Positions 41,845 through 49,459 of a stretch of DNA of 52,163 nucleotides are shown here, in pieces (position 1 is the first letter of the stretch; each line of letters opens with the position of its first letter). Below the pieces are notes generated by a model. It had not been told where the DNA came from, made no database searches, and worked only from the letters and a program-made list of their open reading frames with translations. Position numbers and translations under genes: made by a program. This DNA is from Saccostrea cucullata. Lineage: Eukaryota. The stretch is from positions 1 through 52,163 of the forward strand of contig NW_026932781.1 of the NCBI RefSeq assembly GCF_032062105.1. The letters run 5' to 3'.

Positions 41845-41998
41845 ACCCTAAACCTAACCCTAACCCTAACCCTAACCCTTTTAGCCCTATCCCTACTCCA
41901 AACCCTAACCCTAAACCTAACCCTAACCCTAACACTAACCCCTATTAACCCTAGCACCCATTAACCCTAACCCTAACCCTAACCCTAACCCTAACCCT
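41845..41998 (+). repeat. Interstitial telomeric (CCCTAA)n tract abutting the LINE 5' end
   Basis: Degenerate repeats, then perfect ccctaa repeats ending ...ccct|gagaggacg. Confidence 0.95.
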
Positions 41999-42292
41999 GA
42001 GAGGACGAGCTCATGGATAGTCGTTGTTTACGGAGCTCCGATATTTCTGACCATAAATATACCTTCAAGTAGAATTGTGTATATATTTCTGTTTCTATGT
42101 GTTGTGTGTATACAATTCTTTGATTTGGATTACATTTCGATTCAATTCTACTGTGATTATGAACTTTTTGATGCGAGTATAGAACATAAACAAGTAAGTT
42201 TACTCGCCCCATTGTATTACCGCAGTGAGTATCTACTCACTACATGTTTGTATATAGGTGTGCGTACAGGCTTAGACGTTTGTATTTACGAA

Positions 42293-43597
42293 ATGGAGAA
42301 ACCAGTGTATCTTAAAAACAGTGAACTTCTTGAGAGTTCAGACAATTCTGTGAGAATTATAGATTATGAACTTTTGCAAGCAGTGAGCGCGGTTGTAGGA
42401 GATAGCGTCAAGTGTTTACAGTTAGACAGGGACCTATGGAGAATATATCTCCATAACAAAGAAAGTAGACAAAAACTCCTACAGCAATTGTTTGAATATA
42501 AAAACCAAAGTGTGTCTGTGTACGACACTAACCCCTACTCGTCCGGAGCACTATCTCCTAGAGATCAGGTGTTAAAAGTCACAGTTTCAGGGATTCCGCT
42601 TTCGGTCCAAGATACTGAAATTACAAACATGCTTAAGAAATTTAACGTAAAATTCAAAAGTGAACTTCGTTATGAAAACATTCGAAACCCAGAAACTGGA
42701 AAAATGACAAGCGTCCTGAATGGAAATCGCTTTATTTATATTTCCCCACTCCCCGATGGCAAAGCACTTCCCCGAACAAGCTACTGCGCTGGTTTAAAAT
42801 GCAGAATTCACCATTTTGGTCAATTCTCGGCAAAACAAGAATTAAAATGTCGAAAATGCTGGCAAACTGGCCATTATACAAGGAACTGTCAAAATGAGAC
42901 ATGCTGTAAAGTCTGTAAAAAGCCGGGTCATGAACCCGGGGATACTCAGTGCGAATTCTATCAGGAGCAAACAAATGTTATCGCTTTTCAAGGTTACAAG
43001 AGCATTCTCTCAAATTTCCATATGAGTGAAATCAAAGTTTATGGAGAAAATCACAAGTCAGCAGAACACGCGTTTCAAATGACTAAAGCAATTCGAAACG
43101 GCGATCTTGTGGCTGCCGAAAAAATTCGTTCTGCGACGACTGCACTGGATGCAAAGCGCATCGGCGATTATATCTCCAAAAACGAATCGTGGGAAAAAGA
43201 ACAAATTGAAGTTATGTCAACAATTATAGATGCTAAAGCCTCTCAAATTAAACCCTTTCAAGAAGCCCTACAAAAAAGTGGCCCGAAATCTATCATAGCG
43301 GAAGCTACGTACGATGATTTCTGGGGGACTGGTATCAACGTTTCAGCTACTGTAAAAACAAATCCTGAAGCTTGGCCCAGTAAAAACATGCTTGGCATTA
43401 TAATCAAAGATGTAGCAAAAAACTACCGTCGAAAACCAAGAAGTTGGTCCCTCCCGAGGCAACCAAATAACAAAGCTGCGCGGGTGTCACACTCACAGAA
43501 GGAAATCACCGACTTCGTTAGCCAGCTAAAGGAAGGACCATCCAAGAGATCTCGAGAAAATGTCAACGATGACGCAGACACTAGTGAGCAAGGTTAA
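42293..43597 (+). CDS. LINE ORF1p (434 aa): RRM-like region, two CCHC knuckles, NADAR (YbiA/DUF1768-like) domain
   Basis: ATG at 42293. Knuckles CRKCWQTGHYTRNC and CKVCKKPGHEPGDTQC. NADAR motifs LSNF, SAEHAFQMTKA, AKRIG, W..EQIEVM, EATYDDFWGTG and KNMLG. Confidence 0.85.
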   Translation: MEKPVYLKNSELLESSDNSVRIIDYELLQAVSAVVGDSVKCLQLDRDLWRIYLHNKESRQKLLQQLFEYKNQSVSVYDTNPYSSGALSPRDQVLKVTVSGIPLSVQDTEITNMLKKFNVKFKSELRYENIRNPETGKMTSVLNGNRFIYISPLPDGKALPRTSYCAGLKCRIHHFGQFSAKQELKCRKCWQTGHYTRNCQNETCCKVCKKPGHEPGDTQCEFYQEQTNVIAFQGYKSILSNFHMSEIKVYGENHKSAEHAFQMTKAIRNGDLVAAEKIRSATTALDAKRIGDYISKNESWEKEQIEVMSTIIDAKASQIKPFQEALQKSGPKSIIAEATYDDFWGTGINVSATVKTNPEAWPSKNMLGIIIKDVAKNYRRKPRSWSLPRQPNNKAARVSHSQKEITDFVSQLKEGPSKRSRENVNDDADTSEQG

Positions 43598-43683
43598 TAT
43601 CCTCTTTTTTCTTTCAGACTCTCTCTATGATGAACGTTTTTTTTTCACATTTACGTATTGTTTTGCTTTAAACAAATATCACT

Positions 43684-46600: not shown

Positions 46601-47242
46601 TCATTTTGTTTTATTTTATGGGGATATTTATTGTAATGTGGAGAGTCAGAAATCCTCCTTTTTCTACAACATATTGAGAGCAAAGAAATTTCACCAACCT
46701 ATAACTGTAAAATATTGGACAGACCTATTTGATATTCCTAGATCAATATGGCCAAAAATTTTTAATATGAAAATTACTAAAATGTTTGATAAACAAATTG
46801 CTGATTTTAATTATAAACTATTACATAAATTGCTGAATAATAATTTGAATGTTAGTAAATGGAATGCTGATGTGCTCAGATTTTGTAACAATGTGGAGAA
46901 ATTGAAAATATAGAACATCTATTATATAAATGCAATGATTCTGCAAACATATGGGAAAAAGTCAGCAAATCATTAAAATTTAATATTGGGTGGAAAAATA
47001 TAGTAATTGGGTTCTATGAAGAAACTCAGTTATCTGAAATGCTGAACATACTCATTTCTTATATAGCGTTGAAAATATTTAAATATAAAATGAAATGTCG
47101 TGTAAATTGTGAACCATGTATTACAGAAAATTTGATGAAATTTGTTAAGAACAATTTATCTATGTATTGTAATATTATAAAAATGTCATATAAAAATTTA
47201 AAGCTAGCTGAAATGTGTTTAAATTTGGAGAGAGATTTGTAA
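43684..47242 (+). pseudogene. LINE ORF2p (APE endonuclease, RT, C-terminal CCHC), frameshifted
   Basis: Starts MPYPLLSVFSLNARGLN. APE motifs LQETH, NLYAPN, GDLN, SRIDY, SDH. RT motifs KSPGLDG, NYRPISL, LDFEKAFD, QGCP, HADD, LGI. C-terminal CGEIENIEHLLYKC. Frameshifts near 43745, 44225, 46170 (with a probable internal deletion) and 46890. Confidence 0.9.
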
Positions 47243-48000
47243 TGTTAAGATAAAAGAGTATATTTTCATTCTGTAAGATATCTTATGTTAATAATATATT
47301 TATTTTTTGAAATCCAATGCTTCTTGGGCAGCCTGGTCGACGAAGCATGTAAACAAATGGGGGTCAAATACGGACTTTTGGCGGAGAATTGGGACCCCCA
47401 GGGTTTACAAGGATTTCATAAACACAAAAGATCTTAATACGTATTATCATTATTTTTCTTTATTCATGTATTTTTTATTTTACTCTTTCGTTACTGAATC
47501 ATTTGTAAAAATCGATAACTCACATGTTTATGCCCCAGATTATAACCGGAAATTGCATGTGCGATGTAAATTTTGAACCAATACCGGACAAGAAAGCAAA
47601 ATACGAGAATGAAACGCATCTGTTTTTTTTTTCGTTTTTCAATATATTAGTTAAAATTAAATTATTAAGATGAATGTACATATAAATAAACCATGATATT
47701 CAAAGAGCCATGATATATGCAATACTGTAATTTGAAACGCTAGATATTTCATATATTATATTTATTTTTAATATGAAATGTTTTTCAATGAAATATGAAT
47801 AATCATGATTTTTCTTTTTCATTACTCTTTCAAGATTGTGTAAACTTTTGTATATTAAACATTGAATATAAATATACCGATCCAGGGAGCTCCTGGCACC
47901 CCAGGTGACGTATTAACAGAGGGCTTCTGAGGAAGTTTTACCTCAAACTTTGTTGTATGAAATAAATCTTTTATAAATAAAAAAAAAAAAAAAAAAAAAA

Positions 48001-49459
48001 ACTCTTTCAAGATTGAAATTGGTCCTCGAACTGATCTGCCATATACAAGCTCGAACGGAGAAAATCCAAGACTCTCCTGTGAAACTTCTCTATAGGCGAA
48101 CAGAACTGCACTCAGGTACTTGTCCCAATCTTTAGGTTTTTCAGAACAAAGTCGCTTCAACATTTGTTTCAGAGTTCCGTTGAAACGTTCTACCAACCCA
48201 TTACAGCTCGGATGATATGGTGTCGTGGTCCATTGTCGAAGAGAAATAAGTCGACTCACCTCTGACATTAGAGAAGAAGTAAATTGACTTCCCATATCTG
48301 TCAACATCTCACGGGGCACACCGATTCTCGAGAACATCTCCATCAGGGCCTCTGCAACCCTCTCTGTCTCGATGTTAGGCAAAGCAATAGCTTCTGGATA
48401 GCGAGTAGCATAATCTACCAGAGTCAATATATAACGGTTACCTTTGTCGGTGGTTGGGTACAGTGGTCCAACAAGATCAACTGCAACTCTTTGGAAGGGC
48501 TCATCTATGAGTGGCATTCGCTCCAATGGTACTTTCTGTACCTTACCTTTGTGAACTGTGCGTTGACATATGTCACACGACTGGCAATAACGCCGCACCT
48601 CACTATGCATCCCTGGCCAGAAGAATTCTGAGGTAACTCTTACTAAGGTCCGCTGTGTCCCGAAGTGACCTGCTAACAAAGAGTCATGCGCTAGTTTCAT
48701 TACCTGGTCCCGAAACTTTGCAGGAACAACCAACTGAGTATACACCCTGTCTTGTCCTCCAGTACGAGTAGTGTATTGTCTAAACATGAGTTCATTTTTC
48801 TTAAACCAAATCACCTTACCATTTTTCTTCATCTGAGTCACGTGGTTCTCAACATATTCACGTACCTTTTTCAGAGAAACATCCTGCTCTTGTGCATTTC
48901 TAATTTTCAATGGATCAAAATCCTCAGATATGATGGCTGGTACTTTAAGCTGAGTGTATGGTTTGCTCTTGTTACGTTTCTGTTGCCGGGTCTCTACAGC
49001 GTTTACCTGCCAATCTGGATCTGGTTGAGTCGCTGGCTTGGCATCTGGGACATTACCAACTATCAGATCGTATACAGGATTCTCCATGCACCATACCTCA
49101 TGTTGTTCTTTCAAGAAGGGAGTGTTAATGGAAACCTCTGCGATCGGAACAGTTATTTTGGAGCCGTCTGCTAGAACACAAGTCTGTTTCTTACCTTGTA
49201 CTAGGTCTTCCTCTTGTATTTTGCTCCTCCTTATGACAATACCGCTGCAGCCAGTATCTCTCCAGACTGTAACTGGTATATCGTTAACATATCCTGCAGA
49301 TATCGGCATACTAGAAGCTAAGTTTCTTTTGCAAGAAAAAAATGACGTAGTTGTTGGAAAAGAAGATGCAGTGGATTCTATAACAGAGTCTGAGGGTATT
49401 GTGCTAACAAAACATACCTTTTGCTCAGAAGATCCAACGTCCTGCACAGCATGTGACAC
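48001..49459 (-). pseudogene. pol: pol fragment: aspartic protease plus integrase
   Basis: Protease motif RDTGCS; HHCC (HDSLLAGH...CDIC); DDE core (VAVDLVGP, LTDMGSQF, NGLVERFN). Ends at ILKE. Confidence 0.9.

What the first reader, a model, noticed from the sequence alone, without database searches (positions are those of the whole stretch)
41845..48015. The LINE appears to have healed a broken chromosome end and then been capped with telomere repeats
Seen: the LINE poly(A) joins the end of a Gypsy integrase, and the rest of that Gypsy (RT, RNase H, 3' LTR) is not on the other side. The LINE 5' end is instead fused directly to perfect (ccctaa)n, with no whole-element TSD. Known: poly(A)-proximal, 5'-distal is the orientation of HeT-A/TART and of endonuclease-independent L1 insertion at DNA ends. 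Inference: a break in the Gypsy primed reverse transcription, and telomerase then extended the cDNA end (...CCTCTC-AGGGTTAGGG), founding the telomere on which the tandem element later stacked.
Basis: partly seen in the sequence, partly recalled or inferred. Interest (0 to 1): 0.7.

Follow-up and report, generated by a model that had tools for sequence, protein, structure and literature searches.

The report
LINE-truncated chromosome end, re-capped by telomere
A nearly full-length jumping gene joins half of another transposon directly to telomere-type repeats; most likely its own insertion broke the chromosome and the loose end was then likely re-capped, an inherited example of a known kind of damage rather than a new telomere-repair system.

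Summary
A Tx1/L1-type LINE (42004-48001) joins the middle of a Gypsy integrase by its poly(A) and a (CCCTAA)n tract by its 5' end, without TSD; a second contig repeats both junctions; the missing Gypsy half was not found. The family does not target telomeres (0 of 6 other 5' ends, 0 of 28 3' ends). Corrections: the tract is 168 nt, only its last 38 nt perfect, the rest belongs to a widespread subtelomeric module; a 5-nt filler sits at the join; the cut is a T^AA step with intact poly(A) and only 8 nt lost at 5', which fits ordinary endonuclease-primed insertion, not priming at a pre-existing break. Best reading (0.4): the insertion failed to resolve, the distal arm was lost, telomerase capped the LINE end, modules were added later; similar capped truncations are common in this genome. 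End-joining to an existing tract (0.22) or recombination with a tract-embedded copy (0.22) remain open. Unexpected: the target matches the LINE's own 3' UTR at 18 of 19 nt. The scan noted a similar telomere-capped LINE before in a fungus. Known kind of event; moderate interest.

The parts
1..39340 (.). Context: about 3.6 head-to-tail copies of a ~10.9-kb module (149-bp satellite, 22/44-bp repeat, 930-aa ORF on the minus strand); no RT-sized ORF other than this one in the unit read
   Evidence: ORF has no Pfam, Atlas or PDB hit; module also on other contigs
39601..41830 (.). One copy of the ~2.2-3.1 kb subtelomeric module with short CCCTAA tracts and 16-bp variant repeats; tandem on many other contigs
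41831..41998 (+). CCCTAA tract, 168 nt, 13 exact units; distal part module-type with variants, proximal 41961-41998 an exact run
41999..42003 (+). 5-nt filler GAGAG in place of the first 8 nt of the family 5' end
42004..48001 (+). Near full-length Tx1/L1-type LINE, dead copy (frameshifts near 43740, 44222, 46891; 203-nt gap at 46161 against relatives)
42293..43597 (+). LINE ORF1 with zinc-knuckle motifs (read by eye) and a NADAR domain (about 42998-43417)
   Evidence: PF08719 E 1e-22
43685..47242 (+). LINE ORF2 in pieces: AP-type endonuclease, RT, C-terminal zinc motif
   Evidence: PF03372 and PF00078; zf-RVT in the relative C20604
47820..47838 (+). 19 nt of the LINE 3' UTR that match the target site spanning the cut at 18 of 19 positions; native to the subfamily (also in C13273)
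47979..48001 (+). Poly(A), 23 nt; its last two A coincide with target bases
48002..51918 (-). 5' half of a Gmr1-like Gypsy: LTR 50914-51918, primer-binding site about 50893-50910, SCAN-gag, protease, integrase cut after its core
51919..52163 (.). Remnant of a DDE_Tnp_4 DNA transposon into which the Gypsy had inserted; its other half is missing here

Best explanation
A LINE is joined by its poly(A) to a T^AA site inside a Gypsy integrase and by its almost complete 5' end to telomere-type repeats; most likely its own endonuclease nicked the site, the full-length cDNA was likely never joined back to the distal arm, and telomerase likely capped the free end, after which subtelomeric modules were likely copied onto the new tract by recombination. 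Shown: the anatomy, the cut site, the family's lack of telomere targeting, the absence of the reciprocal piece from the searches run. Inferred: endonuclease priming, loss at the time of insertion, telomerase, the order of stacking. A likely trigger is the 18/19-nt match between the target and the LINE 3' UTR, which would let the distal arm's overhang anneal 144 nt into the cDNA and leave about 5.8 kb of cDNA with a free 3' end.
For: The 12 closest of 23 Gypsy relatives examined read T^AA at the cut; sibling insertions with a clear TSD (12-17 nt) start at T^AA, C^AA and T^GA. Poly(A) intact, 5' end short by 8 nt of about 6.2 kb, so the distal join coincides with the cDNA end. No telomere flank at 6 other 5' ends, 28 other 3' ends, nor in 4 public runs from at most 2 samples. 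No LTR with the expected 5-bp duplication among the 18 LTR loci read; the host transposon's other half occurs only in one unrelated copy. Of 43 distinct tract junctions in fetched loci, 28 had a comparison copy and 10 of these join a tract to the middle of other sequence with 0-4 nt overlap, like healed human deletions (PMC3136441, passages). The exact repeats lie next to the LINE and the variant, module-type repeats beyond them. No shift in divergence along the LINE. Target match: exact 15-mers 3 of 137,195 background sites, 19-mers with one mismatch 0.
Against: A 5-nt filler is more typical of end-joining or RT additions than of telomerase (14% of L1-deletion 5' joins have insertions, PMC7058536; 3 of 19 healed breaks, PMC3136441). 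Module tracts contain long exact runs themselves, so 38 exact nt need no telomerase. CCCTAA itself contains T^AA and the flank ends as a 12- or 18-nt TSD would, and an ordinary insertion (C20604) also lost 6 nt at 5', so the 5' join could be an old insertion into a tract. The predicted sister allele (short LINE stub with TSD) is not in the assembly: 3 of 3 pattern hits are intact Gypsy. AA at the cut also helps poly(A) priming at any break. C993 is probably the same allele (28 of 28 differences match a paralogue). 12 of the 28 scored junctions gave negative overlap (mostly copy mismatches by eye, at least one true filler) and 6 were uninformative.
Confidence: 0.4

Rival explanations
1. Same endonuclease-primed insertion, but the cDNA end was end-joined to a break in an existing CCCTAA tract of a subtelomeric array (LINE-mediated deletion or translocation, telomere capture); telomerase played no part.
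For: 5-nt filler; most of the tract is module-type; no TSD, poly(A) and endonuclease site are the hallmarks listed in PMC7058536 section 9.
Against: No fetched locus (0 of 62) holds the proximal variants or the junction; no microhomology at the join; exact repeats sit proximal to the variants.
Confidence: 0.22
2. Two copies recombined: one had inserted into (or onto) a telomere-type tract, the other was a full copy or a 144-nt stub in the Gypsy (truncated at the 19-nt match); crossover or break-induced replication swapped the flanks.
For: Explains both joins as ordinary insertion ends; CCCTAA holds T^AA; the 19-nt match predicts a stub; C20604 shows a similar small 5' loss.
Against: The subfamily 3' end occurs only 3 times in the assembly, 2 being this locus; no reciprocal product or stub found; no breakpoint in divergence (weak test: no close relative covers the 5' half); needs two rare events.
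Confidence: 0.22
3. One reading: a pre-existing break in the Gypsy primed endonuclease-independent reverse transcription and telomerase extended the cDNA.
For: Orientation fits; no TSD; poly(A)-bearing endonuclease-independent inserts exist at uncapped telomeres (PMC4700185 section 17); two T at a break end could prime on poly(A).
Against: T^AA cut like sibling insertions; 3' end intact and 5' end near complete; family encodes an endonuclease; in the published telomere cases the telomere is the primer, here it is at the other end (recalled for Morrish 2007, not read).
Confidence: 0.1
4. Assembly misjoin between repeats.
For: Fragmented assembly (23,869 contigs), contig starts in an array, all parts are repeats; public contigs could not bridge the poly(A) join.
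Against: Both joins are base-identical in a separately assembled contig; the joins fall exactly at biological ends of the LINE; a third contig continues the proximal flank.
Confidence: 0.04

Closest known systems
L1-mediated deletions and translocations (PMC7058536, passages and section 9 read; bioRxiv 10.1101/2024.12.14.628481, passages and section 11 read)
   Same: Poly(A) at an endonuclease-type site, no TSD, 5' end joined to unrelated DNA with a short insertion, loss of the flanking arm.
   Different: Those are somatic human events, mostly joined to ordinary DNA; here an inherited invertebrate copy, near full length, joined to a telomere tract. The preprint's two-outcome model ligates the first strand; the path proposed here leaves it free.
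Telomere healing and telomere capture of terminal deletions (PMC3136441, passages read)
   Same: Telomere repeats abut arbitrary sequence, often inside repeats; a minority have extra bases.
   Different: Here the break lies at the very 5' end of a LINE and further modules lie distal.
MoTeR arrays of Magnaporthe and CNL1 of Cryptococcus (10.1101/845669 and PMC12810828, passages read)
   Same: Non-LTR elements next to telomere tracts; truncation, healing and array growth by break-induced replication resemble this genome's module stacking.
   Different: Those are telomere-targeting R2-related elements in arrays; this LINE is a single, non-targeting AP-endonuclease element.
HeT-A/TART and endonuclease-independent L1 at uncapped telomeres (PMC4700185, passages and section 17 read)
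   Same: Poly(A) proximal, 5' end distal.
   Different: No family-wide terminal location, no telomere sequence at the poly(A) side, endonuclease-type cut.
NADAR-bearing Tx1 LINEs of Crassostrea gigas (PMC12477816, passages read)
   Same: YbiA-family NADAR domain in ORF1 of an APE-RT LINE.

Membership tests
L1-mediated rearrangement (TPRT-derived) | Poly(A) tail at the 3' junction | tested here: met
   23 A at 47979-48001
L1-mediated rearrangement (TPRT-derived) | Endonuclease-type target at the 3' junction | tested here: inconclusive
   T^AA in the 12 closest relatives, like 2 of 3 clear sibling sites; too few sites for a family consensus
L1-mediated rearrangement (TPRT-derived) | No TSD, 5' end joined to unrelated DNA, flanking arm lost | tested here: met
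   absence holds for the scored candidates of this assembly only
L1-mediated rearrangement (TPRT-derived) | One insertion event, not recombination of two copies | tested here: inconclusive
   even divergence along the element, but no close relative covers the 5' half
De novo telomere addition | Exact repeats joined with 0-5 nt microhomology and no filler | tested here: not met
   38 exact nt but a 5-nt filler; filler may come from the RT, and a minority of healed ends have one
De novo telomere addition | Position at a chromosome end | not testable with these tools
   contig begins inside the array; polarity only
Telomere-targeting retrotransposons (HeT-A/TART, MoTeR, CNL1) | Family copies flank telomere repeats or chromosome ends | tested here: not met
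   0 of 6 other 5' ends, 0 of 28 other 3' ends; public runs agree
Endonuclease-independent L1 insertion | 3' truncation and no endonuclease motif | tested here: not met
   3' end complete, T^AA cut
Tx1/L1-clade LINE | ORF1 plus ORF2 with APE, RT and C-terminal zinc motif, poly(A), TSD | tested here: met
   TSDs of siblings
Tx1/L1-clade LINE | RT phylogeny within Tx1 | not tested
   no reference set available; label rests on architecture and the NADAR passage of PMC12477816
Gmr1-like Gypsy | SCAN domain and integrase upstream of RT | tested here: met
   SCAN link from PMC4131045 passages; the domain order as a Gmr1 trait is recalled

The most novel reading that the evidence does not exclude
A chance 19-nt match between a LINE's own 3' UTR and its target hijacks second-strand priming, so one insertion yields two products: a short stub allele and a chromosome ending in full-length cDNA that telomerase caps. 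Target-element homology would then be a predictable cause of heritable chromosome truncation, and this locus a germline fossil of it.
Probability: 0.15. Interest if true: 0.65.

Novelty: new member of a known kind. Interest (0 to 1): 0.35.

Why it matters
If the best reading holds, it is an inherited, base-resolved case of a LINE insertion truncating an animal chromosome and founding a new end, a process known mostly from tumours and cell lines. The 19-nt match offers a testable reason why this insertion failed. It does not show that LINEs repair ends in this animal, and it is a single dead copy.

Tried and rejected
Telomere-targeting family: rejected. The 15-nt repeat at 47824 and 48001 as a TSD of a second short insertion in place: rejected, the inner copy is native LINE sequence with LINE on both sides. 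C7050 as the intact allele: rejected, it shares only 1.95 kb of the DNA transposon. Search for the homologous haplotype with proximal flanks: swamped by repeats, nothing colinear among 40 scored of 1,045 and of 6,776 candidates. Public contigs laid on the poly(A) join: repeats skipped at 47966-48010, no verdict; none of the listed pieces shows the window's 5' join, which proves no absence. Automatic TSD search: 10 calls in 34 loci, of which only C20604, C13273 and C21568/C2337 are trusted. First nulls for the target match were contaminated by relatives and replaced. Paper searches listed no report of a non-targeting LINE end capped by telomere repeats in a mollusc; the library lacks most subscription papers, and no supplements were read. 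Atlas, Pfam and PDB gave nothing for the 930-aa ORF.

Full report
Anatomy. The window is a whole contig. From left to right: about 3.6 copies of a 10.9-kb tandem module, one copy of a 2.2-kb module, a 168-nt CCCTAA tract, a LINE, half a Gypsy, and a DNA transposon remnant. All 12 CCCTAA tracts have the same polarity, so the chromosome end most likely lies to the left, but it is not in the contig. Earlier scan notes call this an oyster genome; I did not test that.

The LINE. ORF1 carries a NADAR domain, ORF2 an AP endonuclease and RT, now broken; NADAR in ORF1 is reported for Tx1 LINEs of Crassostrea gigas (PMC12477816, passages). A 5' search gave 9 matches: 2 are this locus, 6 show the family start, 1 is partial. 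The family starts GGTCACGT-GACGAG; four public runs from at most two samples show the same start, with non-telomeric flanks where enough flank is shown. The window copy lacks these 8 nt and has GAGAG instead. None of the 6 other 5' ends and none of the 28 other 3' ends read (30 loci from 47 matches; 40 of 328 candidates scored) touches telomere repeats. Siblings have TSDs of 12-17 nt.

The 3' junction. The Gypsy has SCAN-gag, protease and integrase, with RT downstream in an intact relative. All 23 relatives examined continue past 48002; the 12 closest read T^AA at the cut, so the last two A of the tail are target bases. With an intact tail and a near-complete 5' end this is the pattern of endonuclease-primed insertion: in tumours 82% of L1-linked deletions have such sites, and the endonuclease-independent minority is truncated at both ends (PMC7058536 section 9; PMC4700185 section 17). 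The family profile rests on three trusted sites only, so this is support, not proof.

The missing arm. The Gypsy's remaining LTR (50914-51918) sits in a DDE_Tnp_4 transposon. None of 18 LTR loci read has the expected 5-bp duplication on the other side (40 of 57 candidates scored), and the transposon's other half occurs at high identity only in one separate copy. The homologous haplotype was not found. C993 repeats both junctions, but 28 of 28 scored LINE differences match a paralogue, so it is probably the same allele assembled twice: evidence against a misjoin, not a second haplotype.

The tract. Only 41961-41998 is an exact run; 13 exact units lie in 168 nt. The distal start of the tract is the usual start of the tract of the 2.2-3.1 kb module, tandem on many contigs, so most of the tract is module-derived, not fresh telomerase product. 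Yet the genome shows many capped truncations: of 43 distinct tract junctions in fetched loci, 28 had a comparison copy; 10 join with 0-4 nt overlap into the middle of other sequence, 12 scored negative (mostly copy mismatches by eye, at least one true filler), 6 were uninformative. Modules keep a fixed proximal end and vary at the distal end. This resembles healing and array growth at Magnaporthe telomeres (10.1101/845669, passages) and healed human deletions (PMC3136441, passages), and makes capping followed by stacking plausible here.

An unexplained match. The 19 nt spanning the cut, as read in intact relatives, match the LINE 3' UTR (47820-47838) at 18 positions, 15 in a row. The motif is native to the subfamily (C13273, an independent insertion, has it). 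In 137,195 background sites exact 15-mer matches to the LINE occurred 3 times and 19-mers with one mismatch never. The match ends 16 nt after the cut, a normal TSD length. Inference: the distal arm's overhang could anneal there on the cDNA, giving either a stub or, if unresolved, a free full-length cDNA end. No stub is in the assembly (3 of 3 hits are intact Gypsy). Two outcomes at one L1 site are reported in cells, by a different strand path (10.1101/2024.12.14.628481 section 11).

Weighing. Endonuclease-primed insertion, arm loss, telomerase cap, later modules: 0.40. Same, but end-joined to an existing tract: 0.22. Recombination with a copy that sat in a tract: 0.22; the subfamily has only one other copy in the assembly and divergence is even along the element, but CCCTAA contains T^AA and an ordinary sibling also lost 6 nt at its 5' end. 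Misjoin: 0.04.

Verdict. Real structure, partly right reading: the LINE is more likely the cause of the break than its healer. Each step is known from other systems; paper searches listed no mollusc case, within the limits of the library, and supplements were not read. The scan noted a comparable telomere-capped LINE in a fungus and judged it as likely passenger as cause. New member of a known kind, interest 0.35.

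Noticed in passing
window 1-39340; ORF at 25750-28542 (-) and its copies; 33 candidate places in the genome: The 10.9-kb tandem module encodes a well-kept 930-aa protein with no Pfam, Atlas or PDB hit and always ends at one fixed proximal point before a CCCTAA tract. It may be an undescribed telomere-associated mobile element and looks more novel than the LINE junction.
   Followed up: partly
G000 contigs C6479, C9016, C20581, C7373, C21135 and others: Subtelomeric modules are cut at arbitrary distal points, capped by (CCCTAA)n and extended again, many times over: a record of repeated end erosion and re-growth.
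   Followed up: partly
window 42998-43417: NADAR domain in LINE ORF1; known from oyster Tx1 families, function unknown.
   Followed up: partly
G000:C6335, locus L186 first 2 kb: Module array with an inverted head-to-head arm (G-strand tract then C-strand tracts), the only G-polarity tract seen in the loci mapped; possibly a fold-back or fusion scar.
   Followed up: no
window 18900-19450: Scrambled mix of 149-bp satellite and CCCTAA pieces; may be a consensus error of the assembly.
   Followed up: no
G000:C7373, locus L174: Another tract junction with a short duplicated filler that resembles the filler at the LINE 5' end.
   Followed up: no
window 39932-39965, 40245-40278, 41649-41668: Inverted repeats (20 nt perfect, 34 nt imperfect) inside the 2.2-kb module.
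   Followed up: no
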